From Alphaproteobacteria bacterium (GTDB lineage: Bacteria > Pseudomonadota > Alphaproteobacteria > G963923945): a stretch of 64,000 nucleotides of DNA. Every line of letters starts with the position of its first letter. The first letter of the stretch is position 1. Location: positions 1,643,288 through 1,707,287 of the forward strand of contig OZ240684.1 of the NCBI GenBank assembly GCA_965199175.1, written 5' to 3'. Under the pieces are notes generated by a model. It saw only the letters and a program-made list of their open reading frames with translations, did not search any database and was not told where the DNA came from. The position numbers were made by a program, and so were the translations under genes. Below, in pieces: positions 21,619 to 62,279 of the stretch.

Positions 21619-22068
21619 CTATCCTTGTGCCCAGGGCAGACCATCGCTCTTCCAGCCACTGACCGTGCCACGATGACCATCAGGATCATGATCGCCCTCA
21701 AAACCAGAGGCAATATTATAACATTGAGAAAACCCCCGCGCCGTCAAAGCCATCGCCGCCATGCGTGAGCGCCCACCTGAGCGACAAATAAACATAACCG
21801 GGTCTTTGGGATTGACCCCAACCGCACGCAGTTGATCTTCGAATTCCGGGTTTTGCTGCATGTTGGGATAAATTTGCCAGGAAATCTGTATCAACCGCTT
21901 ACCGATTGACCCCAGATCAGGCACGCCGACAAATGCCCATTCAGCAGAGGTCCGGCAGTCCACCAGCTGGGTTTCCGGCTGGTCCCGCAACAATTCCCAG
22001 GCCTGGCGCGGCGACACATCACCCGCATACCCGGCCGCTGGCCTGGTCAAGGACTCACTCTCCGTCAT
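21619..22068 (-). CDS. single-domain rhodanese-like sulfurtransferase
   Basis: 149 aa; active-site loop FICRSGGRS. Confidence 0.75.
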   Translation of the reverse strand: MTESESLTRPAAGYAGDVSPRQAWELLRDQPETQLVDCRTSAEWAFVGVPDLGSIGKRLIQISWQIYPNMQQNPEFEDQLRAVGVNPKDPVMFICRSGGRSRMAAMALTARGFSQCYNIASGFEGDHDPDGHRGTVSGWKSDGLPWAQG

Positions 22069-22733
22069 ACCCCCCCCTGATCATTAAGACCAACCAAATT
22101 AAAACCGGCCAGGTCGCCGAACAAAGCAACAAAAAACGATAAACCCAAAATTGATATTAAAAAATATTCAAAAATAGACTCACAGAAACAATGATAATAA
22201 GAAAATAATTAACCGGAAAAAATTAACCAAAAAAATAAATACCTATAGAAAAAAGAACGAATTCAAATAAAAGCTCGATGGATATAAACTACTAAACATC
22301 AATGACCCACATAAAGACTTCAAAAACACTCACTCAGCCGCAACAAAGCGAAAAAATCCTTTTTGAAAATGAAAAACATCAAATAATGATGAAGGGGTAC
22401 CAATCAGCCTCAGAACCCTCTCACCATTTTTGAGGTCAATGATGGTGACCTTACCGTTGCCGGAAAGACATGGCAATACGACATGATGGTTTCCTGATAA
22501 AAAAACCATCTGGCTGACCCGAATATGGAAAATTTTGCCGACCAGCGACCAGAAATCAACCCCCCGGGAAAAGACAAAAACAAGAGCGACAAGCTGGTAC
22601 GTAACTGCTATGGCTGAGACAGAATCTCTGCCCATTTTATATCCGCTTCATATCCGCCACAGTTTCTTAAAAACGGCATGATGTTTGCGTCTCTACTCCT
22701 GGATTATACGGCTTACCACAGGAGACTCTGATC

Positions 22734-23015
22734 ATGCTTGTCGAAACCAGCCCGACCCATGCCGCTCTTTGCCCATGCACTGACCCTGTAGGCAGAAGCA
22801 AGGAAAAATTTGCCGATCAGACACCGGATTCCAAAAAACTGACCGCTCATTTTGATGCAGCCAAGGCCCCGCCAATCACCGGCGTTTCCGGCAACACCTT
22901 GTCGAAGGAAGTGTTGGATCAGCTCATCAGCGCACAGGATATCAACGCACAGGAAACCGAAAAACACCTCCCGGTTGACCAGAGGGCGGCAACAACACCA
23001 TCCAGCACAACGTAA
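22734..23015 (+). CDS. hypothetical 93-aa protein with a good AGGAGA RBS
   Basis: AGGAGA sits 7 nt upstream of the ATG; no recognisable domain, and the antisense ORF is less plausible. Confidence 0.35.
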   Translation: MLVETSPTHAALCPCTDPVGRSKEKFADQTPDSKKLTAHFDAAKAPPITGVSGNTLSKEVLDQLISAQDINAQETEKHLPVDQRAATTPSSTT

Positions 23016-23225
23016 ATAACGCAATTTTGTAAGGGGGTTTAATTTTTTGCGGGAATTCTTCCTGAAATCGTTTTCCCAAAAGAGCCCGCACAACAACACT
23101 CCCTCATGAAAACCGGGGGCAGAGCAACAGAAATGCTCCCGGTTTAGCGATCCGGGCAGACAGTCTGACTCAAATATAGTGGGGGAGAATTGCCGGAAAT
23201 TCCCGGCAAACCCATTTCACTCTTT

Positions 23226-23513
23226 TCAGGAATTCAAAGCCTTAATGCGGGCTGATAACCGGGAAAGCTTACGGGCTGCCGTATTACGCTTAAAAATGCC
23301 TTTGCCAACACCGCGCATCATCGCCGGCTGAGCCTGACGAAAAGCCTCCCCGGCCGCCGCCGCATCACCTTTGGTAATGGCATTCTCAACTTTTTTCAGA
23401 AAAGAACGAACAGAGGACCGCCGGTCCCGATTGACCCGGGTCTGGCGGTGATCACGCCGAAGGCGTTTTTTCGCAGAACTGGTATTAGCCATGATCTTAA
23501 CACCCAAAACCAA
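23226..23513 (-). CDS. rpsT: 30S ribosomal protein S20
   Basis: 95 aa; [10 protein letters not shown]...RNTAARKL, typical of S20. Confidence 0.9.
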
Positions 23514-23714
23514 AAAAGCACGTGATTGAAGAAAGGAACATCATCAATAAAGGATAATAATTGGAAACAACGTTCTTATACACCCAGTATCTGGAAAGAG
23601 GCGGTATAAGGCAAGCCCCCCTCTGCGTCAAGACGGTGTCAACGTCTTTATCGAATTTATCAAAATTTATCAAAACGTCTTGACTGAAAAGTCATTCGTC
23701 AAAAAGCCCTGGCG

Positions 23715-23782
23715 AAAATCACAGCCTGTTAAAAATCACACCTCGTTAAAAATCGCAGCCTGTTAAAAATCACAGCCTGTCG
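23715..23782. repeat. 4 x 17 bp tandem repeat (aaaatcacagcctgtta) upstream of rpsT
   Basis: Read directly; the preceding 23620-23700 holds a 9-bp inverted repeat (gtcaagacg/cgtcttgac) and three TTATC(G/A)AA motifs. Confidence 0.85.
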
Positions 23783-23922
23783 AAGAATACAAACGAAAGA
23801 ACAAACTTAAAAAAACAGACAGAAACATCAAAAAACAACAAAAATCATGATCAAGATAACCATCAACATCGAATCTCAAAGACCCGGCCTTATCCTGAAC
23901 AGCCCCGCTTAAATCCTGAATT

Positions 23923-24456
23923 TCATGGCCCGGGGGTCAGGGTGAAGCGGGCCTGAATAACCTCATCAATCCGCGTGAGCTGGAGAACCAGAACTTCCCC
24001 CTCACGCATAAAACGATCTTCTGAAAAATGATCTTCGGAAACACTCTCGGCCCGGTTCAGAGACTCTTCAGGAGCAAGGCTTTGCCAACCAAGCTGAGGT
24101 AAGGTTTCCCGGTAAAAATTGCGCACCATCATGCTGGTGAGGCGATCAGTGGCCAGACCGGTTACAAGAGCATCAATGATCCGCCCCTCCCGGGAATCGA
24201 AAACCGTCTGTGATCCGGGCAGATTGGCCATTCCCGAAGGTAAAGGAATATCCTCAAATCCGGCAACAAATTCCGGCCCGGCAACATCACCAGCAACCGG
24301 ATCACTGGCCGGCCCTTTCGCCGACCCGCTTTTTACAGCGAAAACCCCCATCACCATCAGAACCAAGCCAACCACACCGACAACAGTATACCGATGGCGT
24401 GTGACCGGATGTTTGACCGGATATGGGATCGAGTAAAAACTGGCTGATCTTTTCAT
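23923..24456 (-). CDS. hypothetical membrane-anchored protein (one N-terminal TM helix, periplasmic C-terminus)
   Basis: 177 aa; hydrophobic helix VVGVVGLVLMVMGVFAV; no known domain recognised. Confidence 0.45.
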   Translation of the reverse strand: MKRSASFYSIPYPVKHPVTRHRYTVVGVVGLVLMVMGVFAVKSGSAKGPASDPVAGDVAGPEFVAGFEDIPLPSGMANLPGSQTVFDSREGRIIDALVTGLATDRLTSMMVRNFYRETLPQLGWQSLAPEESLNRAESVSEDHFSEDRFMREGEVLVLQLTRIDEVIQARFTLTPGP

Positions 24457-32895: not shown

Positions 32896-33002
32896 TCATA
32901 ATATTCCCCACCAAACAGCCGGGAATTCGCAGCATCCATTTATCAATGATCAGATCAGGATCTTTTCTGAAATGATTCCGGTGATCGCATTGCCCGGCCG
33001 TC

Positions 33003-33773
33003 ATGGCTGGAGACCATGAAACGTCTTCATATATTTTCCATATATTTTCCGATGAGGCCGGGTGTTTCGGCTTTCATAAAAAAGGGAATGCCAGCCGATA
33101 TTTTATCATCTGCAGCGTCATGATGGAAAATTGCGCCATCAGTCAGGCTTTGGAAGATTTAAGACGTAAGATAGTCTGGGAAAGATCCCTTATTGGGGAC
33201 AGCTTCCATGCCTGTCATGACAGGCAAAAAATCCGCAATAAGGTTTTTAGCATCATGAAAAACCATGAATTTGACGTCCACGCAACGATTATGGAAAAAC
33301 CAAAAGCGCGTTCACATGTCCGGAAATCAAACCATATTTTTTACAAATATGGCTGGTATTACCAGCTAAAAAACGCCATATCGGCAGAGAAAAAAAGAAC
33401 CCGCGCATTTCTGTTTACAACGGCCAGTATTGGAAAGAAAAAACATCAGGCTCAGTTTACCCATGCAATCAATCATGCAGTCAATGAAGTGGCGCAGCAA
33501 ACCATCCCGGACGGCAGATGGAAGACGTCCCCTTCATCGTCCGATCCTTGCTTACAGATTGCAGAGTATTGCAGCTGGGCTCGCTCTTCGAAGAAAATGG
33601 GAACGCAACGACCCACGGTCTTACAATCTGATCAAAGACCACATCAAATAGGGATCAGATACGAATATGACCTTTGGCAATATGGGAAAACCCACTCTTA
33701 CTTAAGAGTATCAAAAGCCATAACCGAAGGGAAAAGCAGCCCGCCCCGCAATCTCAACTATCGGCTTGAATGA
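33003..33773 (+). CDS. DUF3800-family protein, in a low-GC stretch
   Basis: 256 aa; the N-terminal IFSDEAGCF (DE[S/A]G) motif is characteristic of DUF3800, a putative RNase H-like fold; the exact start is uncertain. Confidence 0.5.
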   Translation: MAGDHETSSYIFHIFSDEAGCFGFHKKGNASRYFIICSVMMENCAISQALEDLRRKIVWERSLIGDSFHACHDRQKIRNKVFSIMKNHEFDVHATIMEKPKARSHVRKSNHIFYKYGWYYQLKNAISAEKKRTRAFLFTTASIGKKKHQAQFTHAINHAVNEVAQQTIPDGRWKTSPSSSDPCLQIAEYCSWARSSKKMGTQRPTVLQSDQRPHQIGIRYEYDLWQYGKTHSYLRVSKAITEGKSSPPRNLNYRLE

Positions 33774-33923
33774 TCGACAAACCGAAAGGTTCCCGGAACC
33801 CGTTCGCCAGGCAAGGGACGGGATCTTTTATGGTTGTGTATCTCGGGTCATACATATTCTGTAAAAAAACACCCTCAGAGCAGAGGGATACATCAATCAA
33901 TCAGAATTGAAGTCTTTTTGCTT

Positions 33924-34502
33924 TCATGCGGTGGCTTTGGCCAAAGCATGGCGTAAGGCCCGGGCAAAATCGAATCGCTCCCCCCCATTCAGGAAACCGC
34001 CAATCACCAGACGCCGGCCCCGGGACATCAGAGTCAATGGGGTATCATGATGCGGTGTATCGGCCATTTCTATCCAGGTCCAGTAGGGCTGAAAATCCCA
34101 GTGACACCGCCGGCCCCGGGTATCAACCCGCTCAATCCGGAGCCTTGATGCAGTCAAAGACACCCGCTCACACAGCCGGGCCTGACGGAAATTCAGCCAA
34201 AAAGCCCCACCAAGCAACACCATATCAAGCCCGAAAAAACCCAATACCGGCCAGGCCCCCAATGCCAGGAAAAAAATCCCAACAACAAAAAAAATCACCC
34301 CCATCACCGCCGTCACAACCAGGGCAGCACGCACCGACAAACTGCGATGGGGATACAAAACGGCATCAAACAAAACCGGCTCCTGGGTCGATGAATCATC
34401 GGCGGAGTGCCGGTCATCATAACCGGAATGCCCCGACCCATGATAAACGGATCTGTCGCTAGAAGATTGATGATTCTGCGTTGTTTCCATCACCAATACC
34501 AT
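33924..34502 (-). CDS. membrane protein: two TM helices followed by a small cytoplasmic domain (DUF2244 / bPH_2-like architecture), with an N-terminal His/Ser-rich tail
   Basis: The hydrophobic hairpin AALVVTAVMGVIFFVVGIFFLALGAWPVLGFFGLDMVLLGGAFWL followed by a domain of about 90 aa. Confidence 0.45.
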   Translation of the reverse strand: MVLVMETTQNHQSSSDRSVYHGSGHSGYDDRHSADDSSTQEPVLFDAVLYPHRSLSVRAALVVTAVMGVIFFVVGIFFLALGAWPVLGFFGLDMVLLGGAFWLNFRQARLCERVSLTASRLRIERVDTRGRRCHWDFQPYWTWIEMADTPHHDTPLTLMSRGRRLVIGGFLNGGERFDFARALRHALAKATA

Positions 34503-34627
34503 CTGTTCGAATCTCTTCGCATCTGGCTATTTGCATCTGAATCCCTGATACAGATTGTTGTCTCATGAACGAAGTTGAATGATCCTGTTTTGTTATTTCT
34601 GATCATTTTGCGGTTTTGCTTCGTCAG

Positions 34628-34743
34628 GAGACTGTTTAGCTTCATAAGACTGTTTAGCTTTATAAGATTGTTTGCCTTTATTAAGACTGTTTAAATTTAT
34701 AAGACCGTTTTTAAATTTATAAGACCGTTTAAATTTATATAGG
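34628..34743. repeat. About 6 x 18-20 bp degenerate tandem repeats (gactgtttagcttcataa)
   Basis: Read directly from the sequence. Confidence 0.85.
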
Positions 34744-34959
34744 AATATGACAGCACGATATCATGACAGCATGATCAAAAATCATTGATACGGGAAATAT
34801 CAATAAAAAAATAACGCAAAAAAATGACCGGAAAATACAATCCCGGAACCATCCCGGCTCTATCCGGGCTTTGTTCCTGAGTTCGGTTTTTTTTCAGGGC
34901 CGGGGTTTCCATGTTCAGTTCCCGGATACGACCCACAACAACACCGATGAAAAACCAGC

Positions 34960-35640
34960 TTGATGACAGGATTGATGAAAAAAATTTCCCCAATGGGCCG
35001 CCCTTCCATCGATACCGTTTTCCGGCGGTTTGAAGGCCAAACACCTCATCCGCGTGGTGAACTCAACCACAGCAATCTTTTCACGCTTTTGGTGGCGGTG
35101 GTGCTGTCTGCTCAGGCAACCGATAAAGGAGTCAATAAAGCAACTGCGGCCCTGTTTACGATTGCCGATACACCGCAAAAAATGCTGGCCCTGGGTCTGG
35201 ATCATCTCAAGGATTATATCAAAACCATCGGCCTCTATCATTCCAAAGCCAAACACATCATCGGCCTCAGCCAGGCCCTGATTGAACGGCATGGTGGCAC
35301 TGTCCCGGATAATCGCGAACAGCTCCAGGCGTTGCCTGGGGTTGGACGCAAAACTGCCAATGTTGTGCTCAATATCGGCTTTGGACACCCGACCATTGCT
35401 GTTGACACCCATTTGTTTCGGGTCTCCAACCGGACCGGTCTTGCCCCGGGCCGCACGCCTCTGGAGGTGGAAAAAAAGCTCCATTCCCGGGTTCCGGAAT
35501 GGGCCGCCTTGCGTGCTCATCACTGGCTGATTCTCCATGGTCGCTATGTCTGCAAAGCCCGTAAACCCGACTGTGGGCACTGTATTATTACCGATCTTTG
35601 CCAGTATCCTCATAAGACGGCCTCCGTCACATCTGAATAA
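34960..35640 (+). CDS. nth: endonuclease III
   Basis: HhH-GPD motif LPGVGRKTANVVL; C-terminal 4Fe-4S cluster CxxxxxxCxxC. Confidence 0.9.
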   Translation: MMTGLMKKISPMGRPSIDTVFRRFEGQTPHPRGELNHSNLFTLLVAVVLSAQATDKGVNKATAALFTIADTPQKMLALGLDHLKDYIKTIGLYHSKAKHIIGLSQALIERHGGTVPDNREQLQALPGVGRKTANVVLNIGFGHPTIAVDTHLFRVSNRTGLAPGRTPLEVEKKLHSRVPEWAALRAHHWLILHGRYVCKARKPDCGHCIITDLCQYPHKTASVTSE

Positions 35641-42753: not shown

Positions 42754-44037
42754 TTAAGAATCATCATCGTCTTTCAATGCCCGCCAACCGATATCACGGC
42801 GATAGATTCCTCCCGGCCAATCAATGCGCCCAACTGCTTCATAGGCTTTGGTCCGGGCGGTCGCCAGATCTTTCCCCCAGGCGGTGATACCCAGAACTCT
42901 CCCCCCATCGGCCCGCAACTGTCCCTGATCATCGTATCTGGTTGCGGCATGAAAAATCTCAACATCGGCCCCGGCGGCAGCGACTCCATCAATGAGGGTG
43001 CCTTTTTCATATGCCCCCGGATATCCGCGAGCCGCCATAACAACACAGAGAGCCGCCTCCTCAGACCACCGGAGATCGAAATGCCGCAACCCCCCCTCCT
43101 CAACCGTCAACAAAGCGGTCAATAAATCTGAGCGCAGCCGGGCCATGAGAACCTGGCATTCCGGATCCCCGAAACGAATATTATATTCCAACAATCTGGG
43201 AGCCCCATCAACAATCATCAAACCAGCAAAAAGAACCCCCCGATAGGGGTGTCCCTCAGCCTGCATCCCCTCGAGAACCGGCTGAATAATCTCAGCCATC
43301 ACCCGTTCTTGCAGACTCTGATCAAAACAAGCCGGAGGCGAATAAGCCCCCATCCCCCCGGTATTGGGACCAGTATCTCCTTCACCAAGGCGTTTATGAT
43401 CCTGAGCTGCTGCCAGAGGAATGGCGCTTTCACCATCCAGCAAAGCAAAAAAACTCACCTCCTCACCCGGCAGATAATCCTCAATGATGAGGGTGTTGCC
43501 GGCACTTCCAAAATGGTGGTCCTGCATGCTCCGGGTGACAGCATCCCGGGCCATTTTTCTGTCCGTCGCGATAGTAACCCCCTTACCGGCCGCCAGACCA
43601 TCAGTCTTAATCACAATCGGGAGTGGTCGGTTTTCAATGTCATCCAGGGCAGCCTGACAATCGGTAAAGCAGCGATAATCAGCAGTCGGAATAGCATAAC
43701 GGGTGCAAAAGTCCTTCATCCAGGCTTTGGATCCCTCCAGCTGAGCTGCTGCTGCGCTCGGACCAAAAACCCCAACCCCCTCAGCCCGCAAAGCATCCGC
43801 CAGACCCAAAACCAGCGGCTCTTCGGGACCAATCACCACAAAATCAATCGATTGCACCTGGCATAAATCAATCAGTCCGGGGGCATCTGTCGCCGCAATA
43901 TCATGGCATTCAGCAATTTCAGCAATGCCGGCATTCCCCGGTGCAGCATACAGACGCTCACATAACGGTGAGGCCGCAATCGCCCAGGCCAGAGCATGTT
44001 CCCGCCCACCAGAACCAACAACCAAAACCCGCATCAA
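42754..44037 (-). CDS. purD: phosphoribosylamine--glycine ligase
   Basis: 427 aa; MRVLVVGSGGREHALAWA N-terminus. Confidence 0.95.
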   Translation of the reverse strand: MMRVLVVGSGGREHALAWAIAASPLCERLYAAPGNAGIAEIAECHDIAATDAPGLIDLCQVQSIDFVVIGPEEPLVLGLADALRAEGVGVFGPSAAAAQLEGSKAWMKDFCTRYAIPTADYRCFTDCQAALDDIENRPLPIVIKTDGLAAGKGVTIATDRKMARDAVTRSMQDHHFGSAGNTLIIEDYLPGEEVSFFALLDGESAIPLAAAQDHKRLGEGDTGPNTGGMGAYSPPACFDQSLQERVMAEIIQPVLEGMQAEGHPYRGVLFAGLMIVDGAPRLLEYNIRFGDPECQVLMARLRSDLLTALLTVEEGGLRHFDLRWSEEAALCVVMAARGYPGAYEKGTLIDGVAAAGADVEIFHAATRYDDQGQLRADGGRVLGITAWGKDLATARTKAYEAVGRIDWPGGIYRRDIGWRALKDDDDS

Positions 44038-44340
44038 TCACCTTCCCCAATTCTGCGTCCTTTTAAATGACACTTTAAATGACACTCCGGCCCTGTCTCC
44101 TGGTTTTCCACTCAATCCCGCCCCTGGATCATTTTTAATCGGGCTGAAACGTTCTTCCTGAATCGTATAGATAAAAGGTGCCACCACTGTCCCCTGAGTG
44201 AGAACGATCAACCCCCCCAGTAAGCAGAGAGAGTAACAACGATAGGCAACAACCAATATTTTTTTCTGGTTACCAAAAAACCCCAGAATTCCAAAAGCAA
44301 AGAAATCATCAACCACCCTTTCCTGAATTAATTTTTTCAC
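44038..44340 (-). CDS. small membrane protein resembling the DUF5989 family, with a C-terminal extension
   Basis: The N-terminal roughly 60 aa resemble DUF5989 (LLGGLIVLTQGTVVAPFIYT); the ORF then runs on with no stop to the purD start and contains a 13-bp tandem duplication. Confidence 0.35.
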   Translation of the reverse strand: MKKLIQERVVDDFFAFGILGFFGNQKKILVVAYRCYSLCLLGGLIVLTQGTVVAPFIYTIQEERFSPIKNDPGAGLSGKPGDRAGVSFKVSFKRTQNWGR

Positions 44341-44344
44341 CCGG

Positions 44345-44644
44345 TTAATACTGATTTTTCATGCATCCAACCGGATCATCCCGCTCAACCCAATAGGTCG
44401 ATGCCTCTTTGCTCAATCTCCGGTTCAAGCTGTCTTTCCCCAAAAGACGCATCACCAGGCCGATAGGGGCAATCATCAGAAAATAAATCAATGCCATAAC
44501 AAGCGGGGCAATCAACCCACCCAATGCCAGACCCGGCCGAAACCACCATCGATGAGGAATCGTCAAAAATCCCGGCTTCAGCAATGCCATAACAAACAGC
44601 AGTATACCAAACCCAAAAATCCAAAAATTGGTGTCACCCCCCAA
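44345..44644 (-). CDS. SxtJ-like small membrane protein
   Basis: 99 aa with two TM helices and a C-terminal ...RLSKEASTYWVERDDP motif resembling the SxtJ family; it is paired with a DUF5989-like gene as in other genomes. Confidence 0.45.
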   Translation of the reverse strand: MGGDTNFWIFGFGILLFVMALLKPGFLTIPHRWWFRPGLALGGLIAPLVMALIYFLMIAPIGLVMRLLGKDSLNRRLSKEASTYWVERDDPVGCMKNQY

Positions 44645-44866
44645 AGGCCACAGACTGACGATCAGAAAAACCGCCGCAAAGAAGATGCCGAAACTTTTTT
44701 TCTGACCCTATACGGACGTTTAAGTGACTGTTTTTTTCTGATTTTTTCTGAATGATTGTTCTTTTTTGTTATATTTTTCATAAAATTTCTGCCAGATCTT
44801 TTCGTTCATCCGTTCTTTTCAGAATATTTTTCCCAAGGGTACTACTCTTGATAATTAAAAACGGAT

Positions 44867-46537
44867 GTGTCTGGTAGTTTTTTCCGTACAGCTTCCCTTC
44901 ACAATAATCGCATGCCCAAACAATCCATGATCACTTCTTCTGACCTCAATACGACTCCTGACAGCGATCATGGCGACAATGACAATGGTGATGATAACAT
45001 CGACCATCCTATCGATAGCCCTATCGGCGATAACGGTAATCATAACGGTAATAATATTGTCGAATACAGTGTCAGCGAACTCTCCCGTAGCCTCAAAAAA
45101 ACCATTGAAACCGGTTTTGGACGGGTGCGGGTACGTGGTGAAATTTCCGGCATCCGCCGCCCCGGTTCCGGTCATCTGTATTTTGACCTCAAGGACGAAC
45201 AGGCTCTTATAGCGGCTGTTTGCTGGAAAACCACTGTTCGGAAGTTGGCAACACTACCTGAAGACGGCCTGGAAATTCTGGCAACCGGACGCTTATCGAC
45301 ATATGGCCCGCAATCAAAATATCAGCTCATTGTCGAAAGCCTGAAGCCAACCGGGCAAGGTGCTTTGCTTAAGCTGCTGGAAGAAAGAAAGCAGCGTCTG
45401 GCTGCTGAAGGATTGTTTGCTCCCGGAAAGAAAAAACCTCTGCCTGTTCTCCCACAGATCATCGGTGTCATTACCTCTCCCAGCGGGGCCGTTCTGCGGG
45501 ATATTCTTCATCGTCTGCACGCACGGTTTCCCCGCCGGGTGGTCCTCTGGCCGGTCAGTGTCCAGGGCGAGACCGCCGCCGACCAGATTGCTGCTGCAAT
45601 CAGTGGCTTTAACGAATTATCGAAAAAGGACAATATCCCGCGTCCTGATCTGATTATCGTTGCCCGTGGGGGCGGCAGCCTTGAGGACCTGATGGCTTTC
45701 AATGCCGAGATCGTCGCCCGGGCGGCTGCAAATTCACATATTCCGTTGATTTCAGCCATTGGTCACGAAACCGATACCACCCTGATTGATCATGCTGCTG
45801 ACCATCGTGCTCCGACCCCCAGTGCGGCGGCTGAAATGGCAGTACCGGTACGCGCAGATCTACAAACCCAGATCAATAACCAGGGTCGCCGTCTGGATAC
45901 CCTTATCCAGTATGGAATGGAACGGCACCAGGGGAGGCTGAAACTGCTGGATCAAACTCTGCCCGGACCAGATCGTATTCTGGGCAATGCGGCACAATGG
46001 GCTGATGAATGTGGCGAACGCCTGGATGCGGCGGCGGCGGCTGTAAAACTCCGGGCCACCGCCGCCCTGGCAAAAACTGTTGCTGGATTACGTCCGGCCA
46101 TTCTGGAAGAACGTCTGGCCCGTCACCGGCAACGGCTTGCTGATCTCAATCACCGTATCACCACTGCTTTGGATACTTTCATGACCAGGGCGCATCACAG
46201 CCTCACCGCGACCACGGATCTGTTGGAAAGCTATTCCTACCGCAATGTTCTGGCCCGGGGCTATGCTGTCATCCGTGATCATCGCGACCATCCTCTCACC
46301 CGGGCCAGCCAGACCCATCCCAATATGAAAATCACCATCGAATTTGCCGATGCACCTCCCGTCCCGGCGCATATCGGGACCAACCCCCATGCGACCAAAA
46401 CCACCAACATGGCTTCTTCTCAGGAACAAAATCCAAAACCAACCCAGGCAACCACTCCCCAGACCGGGTTGACCAAAACCAAATCCACGACAACAACAAA
46501 CCCTCCCTCAAAAAATCCTCAGGGACGGTTGTTGTGA
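44867..46537 (+). CDS. xseA: exodeoxyribonuclease VII large subunit, with low-complexity extensions at the N-terminus (D/N/H-rich) and C-terminus (T/P-rich); the true start may be internal
   Basis: OB-fold plus the catalytic core (VITSPSGAVLRDILHRL..., ARGGGSLEDL). Confidence 0.85.
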   Translation: MSGSFFRTASLHNNRMPKQSMITSSDLNTTPDSDHGDNDNGDDNIDHPIDSPIGDNGNHNGNNIVEYSVSELSRSLKKTIETGFGRVRVRGEISGIRRPGSGHLYFDLKDEQALIAAVCWKTTVRKLATLPEDGLEILATGRLSTYGPQSKYQLIVESLKPTGQGALLKLLEERKQRLAAEGLFAPGKKKPLPVLPQIIGVITSPSGAVLRDILHRLHARFPRRVVLWPVSVQGETAADQIAAAISGFNELSKKDNIPRPDLIIVARGGGSLEDLMAFNAEIVARAAANSHIPLISAIGHETDTTLIDHAADHRAPTPSAAAEMAVPVRADLQTQINNQGRRLDTLIQYGMERHQGRLKLLDQTLPGPDRILGNAAQWADECGERLDAAAAAVKLRATAALAKTVAGLRPAILEERLARHRQRLADLNHRITTALDTFMTRAHHSLTATTDLLESYSYRNVLARGYAVIRDHRDHPLTRASQTHPNMKITIEFADAPPVPAHIGTNPHATKTTNMASSQEQNPKPTQATTPQTGLTKTKSTTTTNPPSKNPQGRLL

Positions 46538-57402: not shown

Positions 57403-58800
57403 GTGATGATAAAGGCCCCGATGACTCCCGCATCCCGCAAAAAAAACCACACCGATGAACAGGTCCCGATCACCGATACGGAGCCGTTGATCACGTATCT
57501 GTCTCAGGGCTGTACAATCCGGAGCAACTGGCGGATCGGGACCGAACATGAGAAATTTGCCTATCGGCTCAGTGATCACCATCCCTTAAGCTATGATGAG
57601 GTGGGGGGGATACGTGATCTGCTCCGGGGCTTGCTGCGTTTCGGCTGGCAGCCGATTGAAGAAGCAGGCCAGATCATCGCCTTAAGTCGGGATGGTGCCT
57701 CGGTCACTTTGGAACCAGGTGGCCAGATTGAACTCTCCGGTGCGCCCCTGGTCTCGGTTCATGAAACCTGCCTGGAAGTTCGTGAACATCTCAAAGAGAT
57801 CAAATCGGTTGCTGAGGGAATCGGGGCCGGATTGATGGGTTTGGGAGTCCTCCCGATTGCCGGACGCAATGCCATTTCCTGGATGCCGAAAGAACGTTAC
57901 GCAATTATGCGCCGCTACATGCCCACCAAAGGAGACCAGGGCCTTGATATGATGACCCGGACCGCCACCGTACAGGTCAATCTTGATTTTGAATCCGAAG
58001 CCGACATGGTGACAAAATTTCGGGTTGCCCAAGCACTCCAGCCGGTCGCGGTCGCCCTTTATGCCAACTCGCCCTTCCTCAATGGTCGTCCGAGTGGCTG
58101 GCTGAGTACACGCAGCCATATCTGGAACCATACCGACCCGGATCGTTGTGGTATTTTGCCTTTCATCTTTGACGATGGCTTCGGTTTTGAACGTTATGTC
58201 GATTATCTGCTTGATGTTCCAATGTATTTTGTCCGCCGCCAGGGTCGCTATATTGATGCTGCCGGTCAGTCTTTCCGTGATTTTCTATCCGGACGACTCC
58301 CGGCTTTACCAGGGGAATATCCGTATTTGAGCGATTGGATTGACCATATGAGCACCGTATTTACCGAGGTGCGGCTGAAACGTTTTCTTGAAATGCGCGG
58401 AGCAGATGGTGGGGCGTGGAATCGCCTCTGTGCACTTTCAGCATTTTGGGTCGGGCTGCTTTATGACCCGGTTGCTCAGGATGCTGCCTGGGATCTGGTC
58501 AAAAACTGGTCTCTGGAAGATCACATGCTCTTGCGTCAGGATATCCCCAAAACCGCTTTGGCAACCCATACGCCGGCTGGTCCCATGGCCGCATTGGCTG
58601 AGCAGGTCCTGGAGATTGCAGCGATGGGTCTCAAACGCCGGGGGTTTCAGGACACCAAAGGCAAGGATGAAAGCGGTTTCCTTGATCCGCTGATCGAAAT
58701 TGCTCAATCCAAAACCACCCCGGCGGAAATCTGGTTGGATGCCTATGCCCATCGGTGGAACGGCAGCCTCGATCCGATCTTTACCGAAAACGCATACTAA
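57403..58800 (+). CDS. gshA: glutamate--cysteine ligase (plant/alphaproteobacterial GCS2 type)
   Basis: 465 aa; GTEHEKF motif. Confidence 0.85.
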   Translation: MMIKAPMTPASRKKNHTDEQVPITDTEPLITYLSQGCTIRSNWRIGTEHEKFAYRLSDHHPLSYDEVGGIRDLLRGLLRFGWQPIEEAGQIIALSRDGASVTLEPGGQIELSGAPLVSVHETCLEVREHLKEIKSVAEGIGAGLMGLGVLPIAGRNAISWMPKERYAIMRRYMPTKGDQGLDMMTRTATVQVNLDFESEADMVTKFRVAQALQPVAVALYANSPFLNGRPSGWLSTRSHIWNHTDPDRCGILPFIFDDGFGFERYVDYLLDVPMYFVRRQGRYIDAAGQSFRDFLSGRLPALPGEYPYLSDWIDHMSTVFTEVRLKRFLEMRGADGGAWNRLCALSAFWVGLLYDPVAQDAAWDLVKNWSLEDHMLLRQDIPKTALATHTPAGPMAALAEQVLEIAAMGLKRRGFQDTKGKDESGFLDPLIEIAQSKTTPAEIWLDAYAHRWNGSLDPIFTENAY

Positions 58801-58909: not shown

Positions 58910-58930
58910 GATAATCCGGTAGTGGGTCAC
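58910..58930. repeat. A 21-bp sequence (gataatccggtagtgggtcac) that is a near-perfect inverted copy of the IS right end at 61851-61870
   Basis: Direct comparison: the reverse complement of 61851-61870 is gattatcggtagtgggtcac. Confidence 0.8.
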
Positions 58931-59004
58931 TTTGAAATCTAACGCTCTCACGACTTCACTAGGTTTCGTTTGCGTCCGGTGCTGGCAATGCCTATCTTAC
59001 AAGC

Positions 59005-59220
59005 ATGACTAATAAACCCAAACGCCCAAGAGACGCGAACAAGTTAGCAAAGTCCATTGTGGACATTGCTATTGGCCAAGTCGAAGAAGAGCCGAAGGCA
59101 AAGGGGCAACAGCTTGGTGGCAAGAAGGGCGGGGCAGCCCGCGCTAAATCACTAAACGCTGCAGAACGATCCGAGATTGCAAGGATAGCCGCTGCGGCGA
59201 GATGGAAGAAGTCTCGCTAG
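59005..59220 (+). CDS. small lysine-rich basic protein (GGKKGG...ERSEIARIAAAARW motif), a putative DNA/RNA-binding protein
   Basis: 71 aa; pI very basic; resembles a widespread family of small proteins on mobile elements. Confidence 0.4.
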   Translation: MTNKPKRPRDANKLAKSIVDIAIGQVEEEPKAKGQQLGGKKGGAARAKSLNAAERSEIARIAAAARWKKSR

Positions 59221-59714
59221 GCTGCTTCATCTTCGTCCCCATCCGTCAAGCCGTTGGCAACTTTCATCTCTTCGATGTCTTCTTCGAAGTCCATGATGAT
59301 CTGAATGTCATCTTCGTTGGGATGGGCTTCGTTGTAGTGATCGACCTTCATAACCAATGCGTAGCAATCGCTTGCGATTAATCGGCGTTCTTGCTGTACG
59401 CTCTTTTCAACGTGCAGCCGGGGCGCTTCATCAATATCATCCCACTCAAACAGAGTTTCGCCCGTTTTAGCTTTTGATCGCACCGGAATGTTTGCCCGGT
59501 ATTCTCGTCCGGCTTTGTCGGTCCTTTTTTCTTCGCGCAGCGCCTGCGCCAGATCGTTTGCAAGGCTTGTACTCAAATCTATAGGTCTTGGTTGCCAAAG
59601 CCCTTGCCTGATTGCCCAAGCAGCGACCGTCTTTAGGTCAACGGGATCAGATGAAACCTCGTCACGATACTTTTGCCAGATATTTTGGCGTAGTTGTTCT
59701 TTGTAGTTCGGCAT
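59217..59714 (-). CDS. hypothetical 165-aa protein with an acidic C-terminus, second gene of an operon with the HTH-ImmA gene
   Basis: Separated by 12 bp from the upstream gene on the same strand; no recognisable domain. Confidence 0.45.
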   Translation of the reverse strand: MPNYKEQLRQNIWQKYRDEVSSDPVDLKTVAAWAIRQGLWQPRPIDLSTSLANDLAQALREEKRTDKAGREYRANIPVRSKAKTGETLFEWDDIDEAPRLHVEKSVQQERRLIASDCYALVMKVDHYNEAHPNEDDIQIIMDFEEDIEEMKVANGLTDGDEDEAA

Positions 59715-59726
59715 TTCGTTACTCCG

Positions 59727-60827
59727 TTATTTGCCAGTAGGGATCAGGTCACCCCAACCATCCATCATCATTGACGCAGACAGCGATTGTCTGACTTTCA
59801 CCAAGTGTCGGCGAAGAAAATCGTAACGATTCATCTTCCGTTGCAGTTGCCCGACCACTAGACCGGGGTGAACCCCCATACGCTTTGAGAATGCCAGCAC
59901 ATCCCGTCCTGAAAAGTATGGGTTCTTTCGTAAATAGAACGATTGCATTTTCTTGGATGAAACGCAGAAATCCGCAGCTTCTGAATTTGCAATAATTTCT
60001 TCTTCCGAAATGTTTGCTTCCATAGTTGGATCGCCCAAATCACAATCAACAATCGCGGCTTGTTTGCCGTGCCCGTGAAGCACATGGGCGCATTCATGGC
60101 GGAGAACAAACCAAAAATTATCAATGCGATCATAGCGCAGAGACATGCCAATGACAGGTGAAGTTTGGTCGAGCCAAAGGCAAACCCCGTCAATGGTGCT
60201 ATTCGCGATGCCCTCAACAACGACAAAACGGACCCCGGCTTTTTCAAGCAGCTGAGGGACGTAACGGACGTCCTCAGGCTTACCTCTCAAACCTTCAAAT
60301 GCTTTGATTGCATCCATGAACTTCTGCTTGTCATAAGACGGGGAAAGCATCTCCTCAGCGATGCGCTTTACACGAAATAGCCATGCAAGTTGCTGCGGGG
60401 GAACTTCTTCATAAGAGGTCTTCTTCGCGATGTGGGAGAGGTGGGGAACATCCTCAATGTCTTCTACGTCAAAGAACCTGTAAACCTGTTGTTCAAGCGT
60501 TCCTTCTCCGTGTTCAGGATCAACCCACCCTCGCTTTTCCATTTCTCTGAGCGGGTATTGGCTCAAAATCTTAGCCCGTGCTTTGATTCTGGGGTCGGGT
60601 TCTTCAGAGTGCTTAATCCCCCATTTTGCCTGAATCTGAGCGATTTCAGCAGCATCATATTCCAACGCAGCACCGAGAGACTGAGCCATTGCAGTGCTGA
60701 TCGAACGTTTGTCATTTAGTATTTGATTGATAGAAGCTGGCTGAGTGCCAATAGCGTAAGCCAGGTCACTTTGGGTCCAGCCCTTGCCTTCCATCTTGGA
60801 CTTAATGAATGTTCCTGGGGATGTCAT
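59727..60827 (-). CDS. XRE-family helix-turn-helix fused to an ImmA/IrrE-family (COG2856) zinc metallopeptidase
   Basis: N-terminal HTH (WTQSDLAYAIGTQPASINQILNDKRSIS), HEXXH motif (RHECAHVLHGH). Confidence 0.8.
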   Translation of the reverse strand: MTSPGTFIKSKMEGKGWTQSDLAYAIGTQPASINQILNDKRSISTAMAQSLGAALEYDAAEIAQIQAKWGIKHSEEPDPRIKARAKILSQYPLREMEKRGWVDPEHGEGTLEQQVYRFFDVEDIEDVPHLSHIAKKTSYEEVPPQQLAWLFRVKRIAEEMLSPSYDKQKFMDAIKAFEGLRGKPEDVRYVPQLLEKAGVRFVVVEGIANSTIDGVCLWLDQTSPVIGMSLRYDRIDNFWFVLRHECAHVLHGHGKQAAIVDCDLGDPTMEANISEEEIIANSEAADFCVSSKKMQSFYLRKNPYFSGRDVLAFSKRMGVHPGLVVGQLQRKMNRYDFLRRHLVKVRQSLSASMMMDGWGDLIPTGK

Positions 60828-60924
60828 GGGCCTGTTTCTTTCTTGGTTTTCCCCATACTAGAATGAGCACCATCGCTCGTCAATTATTGTTTTAGCAAAT
60901 ATGTTAAAATGACCTATATGCTTG

Positions 60925-61870
60925 ACTATGGTATGTTGATCACTTAGATTAACTGCATGAACAAGTTAGATGTCAAAACCCGCTCTCTGATCATCCGCCT
61001 TCTTGTTGAGGGAAATAGCATCCGTGCCACCAGCCGGATCGCAGATGTGTCTAAGAATACGGTCAACAAGCTTCTGATTGACGCAGGCAAGGCTTGCTCG
61101 AAATACCATGACGAGAACGTGCGCAATGTGAAAGCATCCGTGATCCAATGTGATGAAATCTGGTCGTTCACCTACGCAAAACAGAAAAACGTCAAGACGG
61201 CTAAAGCAGCGCCGGAACATGCGGGCGACACTTGGACTTGGACCGCGCTGGATAGCGAAAGCAAGCTGATCGTGTCCTACATGGTCGGTGGCCGTGACAG
61301 CGAGTACGCAATCGGCTTCATGGATGATCTGTGTGCGCGTCTGGCGAAACCGGGTGCAACTCACTACGGACGGTCACAAGGCGTATTTGGAAGCCGTAGA
61401 GGGCGCGTTCGGCGGGGACGTAGACTATGCCCAGCTTATCAAGCTGTATGGCGAACCCACGGGACAGAAGGGCCACGAACGCAAGTATTCGCCCTTTGAA
61501 TGTACCGGCACCAAAAAGCGCGTTGTCGAAGGTAGACCGATCAAGGCACTTGTCAGCACATCACACATCGAGCGCCAGAACCTTACTATGCGGATGCACA
61601 TGCGCCGGTTTACCCGCCTGACCAATGCTTTCAGCAAGAAGGTCGAGAACCATGCTTACGCGGTCGCGCTACATTTCATGTATTACAACTTCGCCAAGGT
61701 TCATCAGACGCTCAAGGTGACGCCCGCAATGGAAGCTGGCCTGACGGATCGTCTTTGGGATATTTCAGATCTGGTCGCTCTTGTGGACGCAAATGAACCT
61801 GCATCCAAGAAACGAGGACTATACAAGAAACGCCAGAAGCAAATTTCAAAGTGACCCACTACCGATAATC
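60925..61870 (+). mobile_element. IS1-family insertion sequence, roughly 0.95 kb, with imperfect terminal inverted repeats (60925-60944 / 61851-61870)
   Basis: The transposase shows clear similarity to IS1 InsA (HTH) and InsB (DDE; VIQCDEIWSF, W.TDG, IER.NL); terminal IRs found by eye. Confidence 0.7.
60957..61854 (+). pseudogene. IS1-family transposase interrupted by a +1 frame change near 61340-61350, at an AAA run in gcgaaaccgggtg. Either a frameshifted pseudogene or a programmed-frameshift InsAB'-type gene
   Basis: Two overlapping ORFs (60957-61499, 61288-61854); the homology runs continuously from ...FMDDLCARLA into RVQLTTDGHKAY... Confidence 0.7.
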
Positions 61871-61988
61871 CAATTTTGCACGTCCCGATTACATACTCCC
61901 ATCAACCCTGTCTGTGCCGAAAAGATACCGCAGTGTCAGCAAATATCACAATGACACCCCCAATAAAAACAACCATAAAGGAGTCCCC

Positions 61989-62279
61989 ATGACCCACCAA
62001 TGCGGATCCCTTGACCAGGTACGCAGAGAAATTGACCGTCTGGATGATTCCCTGCTTGATCTCCTGGCTGAACGCAGCTGCTATGTCCGGCAAGCGGTTC
62101 AACTCAAAAACCGTGATCAGATTATTGATCAGGAGCGTATTGAAGCCATCCTCACCCGCATACGGGAACGCGCTGCTGCCCTTGATCTGCAACCCGATAT
62201 TGCCGAGGCGGTCTGGCGGCGCATGATTGATGCCTTCATCGCTTATGAAGAACAAATCTATGATGATGTCCACACATGA
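61989..62279 (+). CDS. AroQ-class chorismate mutase; the internal ATG is chosen because the upstream part of the ORF overlaps the IS end
   Basis: LDQVRREIDRLDDSLLDLLAERSCYVRQAVQLK, typical of CM_2. Confidence 0.7.
   Translation: MTHQCGSLDQVRREIDRLDDSLLDLLAERSCYVRQAVQLKNRDQIIDQERIEAILTRIRERAAALDLQPDIAEAVWRRMIDAFIAYEEQIYDDVHT

What the first reader, a model, noticed from the sequence alone, without database searches (positions are those of the whole stretch)
59217..60827. A two-gene module, HTH-ImmA/IrrE metallopeptidase plus an unknown 165-aa protein, as a candidate uncharacterised toxin-antitoxin or defence-like system on a mobile element
A 366-aa protein combines an XRE helix-turn-helix with a COG2856 ImmA/IrrE zinc peptidase (HECAHVLHGH). 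It is followed 12 bp downstream, on the same strand, by a 165-aa ORF with no recognisable domain and a strongly acidic tail. COG2856-HTH proteins are known as antitoxin or regulator partners of diverse, often uncharacterised, toxins, and as prophage repressor-cleaving proteases. The pair sits inside the IS-bounded cargo segment together with a small Lys-rich nucleic-acid-binding-like protein. I cannot assign the 165-aa partner to any known toxin family, so it is a candidate new effector.
Basis: partly seen in the sequence, partly recalled or inferred. Interest (0 to 1): 0.65.

Follow-up and report, generated by a model that had tools for sequence, protein, structure and literature searches.

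The report
Defence-like gene pair inside an IS1-family transposon
The two genes are real and always travel together, but they are the swappable cargo of a small jumping gene (an IS1-family transposon) and resemble known anti-phage toxin-antitoxin modules, with a partner protein of a large family that nobody has characterised.

Summary
In detail: a 366-aa gene (59727-60827, minus) and a 165-aa gene (59217-59714, minus) lie 12 nt apart and form an operon. The 366-aa protein has a HigA-type HTH plus a CapP/IrrE-like zinc peptidase with an intact HExxH...E set. It matches PADLOC PD-Lambda-2_B (2.6e-46). The 165-aa protein belongs to a large family (969 cluster representatives) with no Pfam, PADLOC, PDB or BFVD match.

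It has perfect 22-nt terminal inverted repeats and a 6-bp target duplication. The same four-gene element recurs in dozens of unrelated sites.

The transposase and 71-aa gene form a backbone, and the pair is an exchangeable cassette. Sister elements carry RosmerTA or a ClpP-like protease instead. Distant relatives of the pair form HigB-like/HTH-peptidase/165-aa operons, as in PD-lambda-2.

A palindromic operator between the divergent promoters tracks the HTH recognition helix.

Best reading: a Rosmer/PD-lambda-2-type toxin-antitoxin or defence cassette carried by, and probably regulating, a transposon. Which protein is the toxin is unresolved. This is a new variant of a known kind.

The parts
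58911..58916 (.). Target-site duplication, left copy (ATAATC)
   Evidence: An identical hexamer flanks the other end. 18 of 23 full-length distinct insertions elsewhere have their own perfect 6-bp duplication.
58917..58938 (.). Terminal inverted repeat at the K71 end (CGGTAGTGGGTCACTTTGAAAT)
   Evidence: Perfect 22-nt inverted repeat with 61843-61864. The core GGTAGTGGGTCA is conserved at both ends of the element in all complete loci.
59005..59220 (+). K71: a 71-aa basic protein (pI 10.8), part of the transposon backbone, transcribed inward from the end
   Evidence: ORF. Family of 1,087 clusters, some named 'histone H1'. pN 0.32 against pS 0.77. Co-diverges with the transposase (r = 0.55). Retained in elements with other cargo. 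No Pfam, PADLOC or NCBIfam hit.
59217..59714 (-). C165: 165-aa acidic protein of an uncharacterised family, second gene of the cassette
   Evidence: ORF. 151 close clusters and 969 representatives at E<=1e-3. No Pfam or PADLOC hit for 64 diverse members. No PDB sequence match. AlphaFold model pLDDT 85.7 with no significant fold match in PDB or BFVD. C-terminal AA in 35 of 38 close and 23 of 64 distant relatives. Its stop codon overlaps the K71 stop by 4 nt (CTAG) in 34 of 39 loci.
59715..59726 (-). 12-nt intercistronic spacer with a GGAG ribosome-binding site
   Evidence: Sequence. 12 nt is the commonest spacing across loci.
59727..60827 (-). B366: HigA-type HTH (about residues 5-84), conserved disordered linker (131-138, motif VPHLxHxAKKTxY) and CapP/IrrE-like zinc peptidase (about 185-330; H244 E245 H248, E276/E277)
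   Evidence: PADLOC PD-Lambda-2_B 2.6e-46. Pfam HTH_3. HigA/GraA PDB profile match 5e-10. Invariant residues. AlphaFold model pLDDT 80. Foldseek CapP 7t5t E 6e-4 and HigA TM 0.7-0.8. Linker and active-site blocks conserved in distant relatives.
60855..60883 (-). Promoter-like site for the B366-C165 operon (TTGACG, 17 nt, TAGTAT)
   Evidence: Found by the consensus scan. The -35 TTGAC is conserved in 30 aligned control regions.
60891..60908 (.). Palindromic operator (TTTAGCA-aata-TGTTAAA; family consensus TTAAC-N6-GTTAA) between the two -35 boxes
   Evidence: Fixed position in the alignment. 75% Watson-Crick complementarity in register against 40% or less when slid, with both-arm changes in L015, L027/L029 and L041. 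Variants go with changed HTH recognition helices and not with the transposase.
60922..60950 (+). Promoter-like site for the transposase gene (TTGACT, 17 nt, TAGATT). It ends 6 nt before the ATG, implying a leaderless or near-leaderless mRNA
   Evidence: Consensus scan. The -35 (GTCAAG on the other strand) is conserved in all loci.
60957..61854 (+). IS1-family transposase gene, disrupted here by a 1-nt insertion near 61346 (two ORFs: 60957-61499 and 61288-61854). The stop codon lies inside the terminal repeat
   Evidence: ORFs. Pfam DDE_Tnp_IS1 2.9e-6. Intact 295-aa relatives hit NCBIfam transpos_IS1 at 5.8e-19 and are annotated 'IS1 family transposase' by PGAP. Frameshift located by alignment.
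61843..61864 (.). Terminal inverted repeat at the transposase end
61865..61870 (.). Target-site duplication, right copy (ATAATC)

Best explanation
The two genes are the central, exchangeable cargo cassette of a 2,948-bp IS1-family transposable element (58917-61864). The element's backbone is the pair of terminal inverted repeats, a divergently transcribed transposase and a small basic protein (K71).

The cassette is a toxin-antitoxin-like, most likely abortive-infection or defence, module of the 'ImmA-protease hub' kind, to which RosmerTA and PD-lambda-2 belong.

Proposed mechanism:
1. The 366-aa protein dimerises and binds, through its HigA-type HTH, the palindromic operator that lies between the back-to-back promoters of its own operon and of the transposase gene. 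This sets the level of the cassette and probably of the transposase.
2. Its CapP/IrrE-like zinc peptidase is a latent sensor-effector. A trigger such as phage infection or DNA damage (by analogy with CapP, IrrE and ImmA) activates it. It then cuts either its own conserved disordered linker or its partner.
3. The acidic 165-aa protein is kept short-lived by its C-terminal Ala-Ala tail. It is the obligate partner that either restrains the peptidase or is the factor released. The outcome is growth arrest of the infected cell.

Shown here: the element's structure and mobility, the cassette's strict conservation and its exchange between backbones, the homologies, the intact catalytic site, and the operator with its co-variation with the HTH.

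Inferred: DNA binding itself, the trigger, the cleavage target, proteolytic lability, toxicity, phage defence, and which of the two proteins is the toxic one.
For: Element structure:
- Perfect 22-nt inverted repeats and an ATAATC duplication.
- The same repeats occur in all complete loci, and 18 of 23 full-length distinct insertions have their own perfect 6-bp duplication.
- The four-gene order Tnp(-) B366(+) C165(+) K71(-) appears in every sufficiently long locus, down to 29% identity of the 165-aa protein (L080).

Cassette versus backbone:
- Pairwise identities correlate for B366-C165 (r = 0.70) and Tnp-K71 (r = 0.55), but not for Tnp-B366 (r = 0.09).
- Discordant pairs confirm this. L015/L031 have Tnp 83%, B366 45%, C165 33%. 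L009/L021 have Tnp 52%, B366 84%.
- The same backbone carries RosmerTA (RmrT 1e-97, RmrA 3e-191) or a ClpP-like SDH protease in other elements.

Kinship with defence and TA systems:
- PD-Lambda-2_B 2.6e-46 over nearly the full length.
- HigA-type HTH and a CapP fold match.
- Distant C165 relatives sit in HigB-like/HTH-peptidase/C165 operons beside type I restriction-modification and Abi genes (L014) or a caspase-helicase gene (L077).
- Published tests show PD-lambda-2 is an abortive-infection defence system with a toxic B component (PMC9519451). RmrA-type ImmA proteases are antitoxins paired with many unrelated toxins and are enriched in defence (PMC10440598 and bioRxiv 10.1101/2022.05.11.491447).

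Regulation:
- Both promoters are found independently and are conserved.
- The palindrome is in a fixed register with both-arm changes, and these track the recognition helix.

Active peptidase: HExxH and EExxAN are invariant or nearly so.

Partner features: operon spacing and ribosome-binding site; acidic tail and AA end.

All four genes are under purifying selection.
Against: - No toxicity, neutralisation or phage assay exists for this cassette or for any member of the 165-aa family.
- The 165-aa protein does not match PD-Lambda-2_C, any RmrT, or any toxin family. It shows no membrane segment and no nuclease or other catalytic motif.
- The HigB-like component that neutralises the toxic B protein in PD-lambda-2 is absent from the IS-borne form.
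- The operator lies upstream of both -35 boxes rather than over them. That position is unusual for simple repression.
- The four-gene architecture is conserved so deeply that the cassette could serve the transposon itself rather than the host.
- Neighbouring defence genes (TIR-AAA-TPR in L001, Shedu in L015) are anecdotal. Most insertion sites lie among housekeeping genes.
- The copy in this window has a frameshifted transposase.
Confidence: 0.55

Rival explanations
1. The cassette is mainly a transposition switch. The HTH-peptidase acts like an ImmR/ImmA or CapH/CapP repressor and protease fused into one protein. It holds the transposase promoter, and its own, in check. It inactivates itself on DNA damage or another stress, so the element jumps when its host is in trouble. 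The 165-aa protein modulates the protease, and K71 assists transposition.
For: - The operator sits exactly between the divergent transposase and cassette promoters in all elements.
- The four-gene architecture is conserved down to 29% identity.
- There is a conserved disordered linker motif between the HTH and the peptidase, where self-cleavage would detach the DNA-binding domain.
- The peptidase matches the fold of CapP, a repressor-cleaving protease.
- ImmA/ImmR controls the mobility of ICEBs1 (cited in PMC2701414 and PMC10440598).
- TA pairs in Tn3 transposons are proposed to be part of the transposition module (PMC7157771).
Against: - The cassette and the transposase do not co-diverge (r = 0.09), and the cassette is swapped between backbones.
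- The same slot holds unrelated cargo, including a bona fide defence system, RosmerTA. The backbone can therefore do without this particular regulator.
- The same B-C pair also exists without any transposase, in HigB-type operons.
- The operator does not overlap the core promoter elements.
Confidence: 0.22
2. The pair is a pure addiction (stabilisation) module with no role in phage defence or in transposition control. It penalises loss or deletion of the element, or of the replicon that carries it, and so helps the transposon persist.
For: - The HTH is of the HigA antitoxin type.
- The 165-aa protein has a degron-like AA tail and an acidic nature, as labile antitoxins do.
- Related elements and operons occur on plasmids.
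- COG2856-Xre fusions have long been predicted as TA components (PMC2701414).
Against: - Most copies are chromosomal, where segregational loss does not apply.
- Deletion derivatives that lost the cassette but kept the ends exist and have apparently survived (L052, L063).
- The experimentally tested relatives (PD-lambda-2, RosmerTA) act in phage defence.
Confidence: 0.15
3. The two genes are an ordinary host regulator and an unrelated neighbour, adjacent by chance, or the small ORFs are not real genes.
For: None beyond the lack of annotation for the 165-aa and 71-aa proteins.
Against: - Strict co-occurrence in about 60 loci from many taxa and insertion sites.
- Purifying selection on all genes.
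- Correlated divergence of the pair.
- A confident AlphaFold model for the 165-aa protein.
Confidence: 0.02

Closest known systems
PD-lambda-2 (E. coli anti-phage system; Vassallo et al. 2022, PMC9519451)
   Same: The 366-aa protein matches the PD-Lambda-2_B model nearly end to end (2.6e-46): a HigA-like HTH fused to an ImmA/IrrE-type peptidase. A downstream partner gene sits in the same operon. Distant relatives of the 165-aa family sit third in HigB-like/B/C operons with the same architecture (L014, L007, L077).
   Different: The window has no HigB-like first gene; a divergent transposase occupies that side. The 165-aa protein does not match the PD-Lambda-2_C model. PD-lambda-2 is not described as cargo of an insertion sequence. 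Function is untested here.
RosmerTA (RmrT/RmrA; Millman et al. 2022; Ernits et al. 2023, PMC10440598)
   Same: A two-gene module in which an HTH plus zinc-peptidase protein is paired with a small protein of unknown fold drawn from many unrelated families. It is associated with defence. A genuine RosmerTA occupies the same cargo slot in a sister element (L082).
   Different: The 366-aa protein hits RmrA models only weakly (E 0.002-0.05). The 165-aa protein hits no RmrT model. Gene order here is peptidase first. The known RmrT of phage Kita depolarises the membrane, whereas the 165-aa protein is soluble and acidic.
CapH/CapP of CBASS, DdrO/IrrE of Deinococcus, ImmR/ImmA of ICEBs1 (repressor plus repressor-cleaving metallopeptidase)
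   Same: The peptidase fold is closest to CapP (7t5t), with an HExxH...E site. It is associated with an Xre-type HTH and a palindromic operator at a divergent promoter. ImmR/ImmA controls the mobility of a mobile element.
   Different: Here the HTH and the peptidase are one polypeptide and the HTH is of the HigA type. No separate repressor substrate is evident. The controlled genes are a transposase and a small unknown protein. The trigger and the cleavage are not shown.
Toxin-antitoxin pairs embedded in the transposition module of Tn3-family transposons (Lima-Mendez et al. 2020, PMC7157771)
   Same: A TA-like pair is placed next to, and shares a control region with, the transposition gene of a transposon. 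The modules have been acquired and exchanged between transposons.
   Different: The transposon family is different (IS1-like DDE, 2.9 kb, no resolvase). The TA type differs (ImmA-hub rather than ParE, PIN, Gp49 or HEPN). The association is nearly universal in this clade rather than occasional.
IS1 family insertion sequences (IS1, single-ORF subgroups; from my own knowledge of ISfinder classifications)
   Same: The DDE transposase has its best match to IS1 models. The terminal repeats begin GGT(A/G)(G/A)TG, as in IS1. There is a small basic protein encoded at one end.
   Different: The transposase scores below the NCBIfam cut-off (68.8 against 100 bits). Intact copies have a single ORF without the insA/insB frameshift. 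The target duplication is 6 bp rather than the 8-9 bp I recall for IS1. There are three extra genes. K71 is unrelated to InsA as far as tested.

Membership tests
PD-lambda-2 defence system | B component: HigA-like HTH fused to an ImmA/IrrE peptidase | tested here: met
   PADLOC PD-Lambda-2_B 2.6e-46, residues 4-350 on profile 60-397 of 402.
PD-lambda-2 defence system | A component: HigB-like protein encoded just upstream of B | tested here: not met
   The 129-nt region upstream holds only promoters, followed by a divergent transposase. My HigB HMM hits only L007 and L014.
PD-lambda-2 defence system | C component homologous to PD-Lambda-2_C | tested here: not met
   No PADLOC hit for the 165-aa protein at E<=1, nor for 64 diverse family members at E<=0.01.
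PD-lambda-2 defence system | Abortive-infection protection against phage; B toxic and neutralised | not testable with these tools
   Needs expression and phage assays.
RosmerTA | RmrA-type antitoxin (HTH plus zinc peptidase) matching RmrA profiles | tested here: inconclusive
   Only weak partial RmrA hits (E 0.0024-0.052). By contrast, 3e-191 for the genuine RmrA of L082.
RosmerTA | RmrT toxin partner | tested here: not met
   No RmrT hit for the 165-aa protein or its family.
ImmA/IrrE (COG2856, Peptidase_M78) metallopeptidases | HExxH motif plus a downstream Glu ligand, and the fold | tested here: met
   H244, E245 and H248 are invariant and E276/E277 nearly so, conserved in distant relatives. 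Foldseek CapP 7t5t E 6e-4 over 179 columns. Pfam M78 itself is sub-threshold (15.5 against 22 bits), but is passed by relatives.
HigA-type antitoxin HTH | Xre-fold HTH most similar to HigA/GraA | tested here: met
   PDB profile hits to GraA/HigA 5e-10 to 4e-6 for residues 5-84. Foldseek TM 0.7-0.82 to HigA. TIGR02607 1.7e-7 but below its cut-off.
Type II toxin-antitoxin system (generic) | One product toxic, neutralised by the other through direct binding; labile antitoxin | not testable with these tools
   Only indirect evidence: operon, autoregulatory-type operator, degron-like AA tail.
IS1 family transposable element | DDE transposase of the IS1 family | tested here: inconclusive
   Best family is IS1 (NCBIfam 5.8e-19, 68.8 bits, cut-off 100; Pfam DDE_Tnp_IS1 2.9e-6). 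PGAP names relatives 'IS1 family transposase'.
IS1 family transposable element | Terminal inverted repeats and a target-site duplication showing transposition | tested here: met
   22-nt perfect inverted repeats. 6-bp duplications that differ per site in 18 of 23 full-length insertions.
IS1 family transposable element | insA/insB organisation with a programmed -1 frameshift (classical IS1) | tested here: not met
   Relatives have one 295-aa ORF. The split in the window is a 1-nt insertion that puts the rest in the +1 frame.

The most novel reading that the evidence does not exclude
This clade of IS1-like transposons has a built-in 'socket' for sensor-protease cassettes. The cassette's HTH-peptidase directly couples a danger signal (phage infection or DNA damage) to expression of the leaderless transposase mRNA from the shared control region. 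The same switch would then trigger both host growth arrest and escape of the element by transposition. The 165-aa family would be a new class of short-lived, acidic regulator of ImmA/CapP-type proteases, possibly a DNA mimic.
Probability: 0.2. Interest if true: 0.8.

Novelty: new variant of a known kind. Interest (0 to 1): 0.55.

Why it matters
Insertion sequences are usually thought of as carrying nothing but their transposase. Here, a widespread clade has a fixed architecture with an exchangeable slot. It is found mostly in alphaproteobacteria, on chromosomes, plasmids and prophage-like DNA. The slot holds ImmA-protease-type TA or defence cassettes, and these are wired to the transposase promoter through a shared operator.

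If the cassette defends against phage, these 3-kb elements are among the smallest autonomous vehicles for spreading immune genes. If it controls transposition, it would be a compact example of signal-induced jumping.

Either way, the work assigns a genomic role and a testable partner to a family of about 970 clusters of uncharacterised 160-aa proteins. It also gives a natural two-gene version of PD-lambda-2 that lacks the HigB-like component. That version could clarify how such peptidase systems are kept silent and how they fire.

Tried and rejected
- **165-aa family searches:** a profile against PDB sequences gave no hit at E<=10. Pfam on ten longer family members, looking for fused domains, gave none.
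- **Locus retrieval:** The search for related loci with the diverse alignment A2 failed for lack of conserved stretches. The genome-contig scan with the single protein returned only 4 loci.
- **Link to PD-Lambda-2_C:** tested through distant relatives and not found. I could not retrieve an E. coli PD-lambda-2 locus to compare its C protein directly. The supplement search failed on a term that was too short and I did not repeat it.
- **Palindrome detection:** a free 'best palindrome' search with shuffles was only weakly above background and noisy. My first fixed-position test had an off-by-one anchor and is meaningless. The alignment-column test is the one to rely on.
- **Rfam:** nothing above noise in the element.
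- **Programmed frameshift in the window's transposase:** rejected, because the insertion puts the downstream part in the +1 frame and relatives have one ORF.
- **K71 as the basic partner of the acidic 165-aa protein:** considered, but K71 co-diverges with the transposase rather than with the cassette, and it is retained with other cargo.
Full report
**1. The observation**

The ORF list shows a 366-aa ORF at 59727-60827 and a 165-aa ORF at 59217-59714, both on the minus strand. The 12-nt gap between them holds a GGAG ribosome-binding site. A 71-aa Lys/Arg-rich ORF (59005-59220, plus strand) converges on the 165-aa gene.

The 366-aa protein has an Xre-type HTH (Pfam HTH_3 1.4e-7) and the motif HECAH. 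The Pfam Peptidase_M78 hit is sub-threshold. Even so, H244, E245, H248, H253 and E276/E277 are invariant or nearly so in 41 relatives, and they are kept in much more distant ones.

The 165-aa and 71-aa proteins have no hit in Pfam, PADLOC or NCBIfam.

**2. What the 366-aa protein is**

It matches PADLOC's PD-Lambda-2_B model nearly end to end (2.6e-46). A profile of the family matches HigA/GraA antitoxin structures over residues 5-84 (5e-10).

An AlphaFold model (pLDDT 80) has two kinds of structural neighbour. The best is CapP, the CBASS-associated IrrE-like metallopeptidase (7t5t, E 6e-4, 179 columns). The N-terminal domain matches HigA (TM 0.7-0.82).

A predicted-disordered linker (residues 131-138) carries the motif VPHLxH[SA]AKKTxY. 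The motif is conserved even in relatives about 30% identical. I read it as a candidate cleavage or docking site; this is inference.

In the literature, PD-lambda-2 is a three-gene abortive-infection system. A is HigB-like. B is this HTH-peptidase; it is toxic alone and is rescued by A. C is needed for defence (PMC9519451).

**3. What the 165-aa protein is**

It has 151 close clusters. A profile search finds 969 representatives at E<=1e-3.

- None of 64 diverse members hits any Pfam or PADLOC family, including PD-Lambda-2_C and RmrT.
- No PDB sequence matches.
- The AlphaFold model is confident (pLDDT 85.7). It has three helices, a four-stranded sheet, a long helix, a short helix and a disordered acidic tail. 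Foldseek finds nothing significant in PDB or BFVD.

The protein is acidic (pI 4.6). It ends in Ala-Ala in 35 of 38 close and 23 of 64 distant relatives. Chance expectation is about 1%. From general knowledge of ClpX recognition of ssrA-like C-termini, I take this as a possible degron; this is inference.

**4.

A perfect 22-nt inverted repeat (58917-58938 and 61843-61864) encloses four genes: the 71-aa gene, the pair, and a divergent transposase gene (60957-61854). The repeat is flanked by a direct ATAATC duplication.

The transposase's best family is IS1, and PGAP names relatives 'IS1 family transposase'.

The closest homologue of the 165-aa protein, in a Paracoccaceae MAG, has the same gene order in a different chromosomal site. 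So do all other loci examined.

With my own HMMs on 76 or more loci, every locus long enough shows Tnp(-) B366(+) C165(+) K71(-). The terminal repeats (core GGTAGTGGGTCA) are conserved. Of 23 full-length distinct insertions, 18 have their own perfect 6-bp duplication.

This is therefore an active family of 2.9-3.5-kb transposons, found on chromosomes, plasmids and prophage-like DNA. Deletion derivatives that keep both ends also exist (L052, L063).

In the window the transposase carries a 1-nt insertion near 61346. This copy is probably immobile, or the base is an assembly error.

**5. Backbone and cassette**

All four genes are under purifying selection (pN 0.24-0.32 against pS 0.73-0.83). Pairwise divergences correlate within B366-C165 (r = 0.70) and within Tnp-K71 (r = 0.55), but not between the two groups (Tnp-B366 r = 0.09).

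Clear discordances confirm this:
- L015/L031: Tnp 83%, B366 45%, C165 33%.
- L009/L021: Tnp 52%, B366 84%.

Elements with the same ends, transposase and K71 carry other cargo:
- A full RosmerTA system (RmrT 1e-97, RmrA 3e-191) in a Hoeflea plasmid.
- A ClpP-like SDH protease plus a 68-aa ORF in an Acidiphilium plasmid.

The pair is therefore an exchangeable cassette in a cargo slot of the transposon.

Conversely, distant relatives of the 165-aa protein (40-44% identity) occur without any transposase or K71. They sit as the third gene of HigB-like/HTH-peptidase/C165 operons. One lies beside type I restriction-modification and Abi genes (L014), and another beside a caspase-helicase gene (L077). 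In other HigB/HigA-peptidase operons the third gene is different or absent.

**6. Regulation**

The 129-nt region between the transposase and the 366-aa gene is strongly conserved. It holds two back-to-back sigma-70-like promoters, which the consensus scan finds independently:
- TTGACG, 17 nt, TAGTAT for the cassette.
- TTGACT, 17 nt, TAGATT for the transposase. This one ends 6 nt before the ATG, which implies a leaderless mRNA.

Between the two -35 boxes lies a palindrome (consensus TTAAC-N6-GTTAA; window 60891-60908). At fixed alignment columns, 75% of arm positions are complementary, against 40% or less when the arm is slid. Both arms have changed together in L015 (TCCCC...GGGGA), L027/L029 (TTCGG...CCGAA) and L041.

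These variants go with altered HTH recognition helices: INQIL becomes VSEVV and other variants. They do not track the transposase; L015 and L031 share 83% transposase identity but have different operators. This is good indirect evidence that the 366-aa protein binds this site.

Because the site lies upstream of both -35 boxes, I cannot say whether it represses or activates, or whether it acts on both promoters.

**7. Mechanism**

*Shown:* a transposon with an exchangeable cassette; a HigA-HTH/CapP-like peptidase with an intact active site; an obligate partner of an unknown family; a co-varying operator shared with the transposase gene; kinship with two experimentally validated defence systems.

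*Inferred, and my best reading (0.55):* the cassette is a TA-like, probably abortive-infection, module of the ImmA-protease hub type (PMC10440598). The HTH-peptidase sits on the operator and is a latent sensor-protease. The short-lived acidic 165-aa protein either restrains it or is what it releases.

I cannot assign the toxin. PD-lambda-2B is itself toxic, RmrA is an antitoxin, and the 165-aa protein has antitoxin-like traits while occupying the usual toxin position.

*Rivals:*
- A transposition switch of the ImmR/ImmA kind (0.22). The shared control region and the deep conservation of the architecture favour it. Cassette swapping and alternative cargo weaken it.
- A pure addiction module (0.15).
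- Chance adjacency (0.02), refuted.

**8. Comparison and novelty**

The cassette works like PD-lambda-2 and RosmerTA but is a member of neither. It lacks the HigB-like A component and a PD-Lambda-2_C homologue, and it matches RmrA only weakly and RmrT not at all.

The placement of a TA-like pair in the control region of a transposase recalls the TA pairs of Tn3-family transposons (PMC7157771). Defence cargo is well known for Tn7-like elements (PMC8649781, listed).

My literature searches found no description of an IS1-family element with this architecture, nor of the 165-aa family. The library is limited, however, and ISfinder could not be consulted.

I rate it a new variant of a known kind, with interest 0.55.

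Noticed in passing
window 60957-61854 (insertion near 61346): The transposase gene of this copy has a 1-nt insertion relative to intact 295-aa relatives, which splits it into two ORFs in a +1 relationship. It is either a dead copy or an assembly error, not an IS1-style -1 programmed frameshift. The cargo genes and both terminal repeats are intact.
   Followed up: yes
L082 (Hoeflea sp. plasmid NZ_CP011481), about 1054-5279: A sister element with the same terminal repeats, transposase and K71 carries a full RosmerTA system (RmrT 1e-97, RmrA 3e-191) plus two small ORFs, one weakly PD-T4-9_A-like. It has its own GATGATT duplication.
   Followed up: partly
L083 (Acidiphilium multivorum plasmid NZ_CP041717), about 1766-4401: Another sister element carries a ClpP-like SDH-type serine protease (318 aa) and a 68-aa ORF in the cargo slot. 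A RES/Xre toxin-antitoxin pair lies just outside its end.
   Followed up: partly
window 59217-59220, and 34 of 39 related loci: The stop codons of the convergent 165-aa and 71-aa genes overlap by exactly 4 nt (CTAG), leaving no room for terminators. The two transcripts must overlap as antisense, which could be a further regulatory layer.
   Followed up: partly
window 60906-60914, and the terminal repeats 58925-58933 / 61848-61856: The motif GGTCAnTTT is shared by the inner part of the terminal inverted repeats (GGGTCACTTTGAAAT) and by the control region next to the operator arm (GGTCATTTTAAC). It may be a second binding site, for the transposase or for K71.
   Followed up: no
window 60945-60957: The predicted -10 box of the transposase promoter ends 6 nt before the ATG, here and in related elements. 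This suggests a leaderless transposase mRNA.
   Followed up: partly
L052, L063, L065-L070 (metagenome contigs): These are internally deleted derivatives of the element. Some lack the 366-aa gene and most of the 165-aa gene but keep K71 and the ends (L052: 2,228 bp with a perfect duplication; L063: 1,171 bp). They are MITE-like decay products.
   Followed up: partly
L011 and L012 (same metagenome, ERZ25067493): Two identical copies of the element are inserted at different sites (duplications CCTGAA and TTATGT) in prophage-like DNA, with GpA terminase, DNA ligase and BrnA antitoxin genes nearby. This shows recent transposition into phage genomes.
   Followed up: partly
window 61914-62279: The chorismate mutase ORF next to the element probably starts at ATG 61990 (RBS aaggag), 125 nt from the terminal repeat. 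The element sits between a plant-type glutamate-cysteine ligase gene (57403-58800) and this gene, so it could affect expression of the chorismate mutase.
   Followed up: no
window 22000-24000, 33000-35000, 44000-45000: These stretches have markedly lower G+C (0.44-0.46 against about 0.53 for the window) and may be other acquired segments. They were not examined.
   Followed up: no
L001-L003 6897-9347; L015 6104-7282: In two unrelated hosts the element lies next to defence-type genes: a TIR-AAA_16-TPR protein, and a Shedu nuclease. This is anecdotal, because most other insertion sites lie among housekeeping genes.
   Followed up: no
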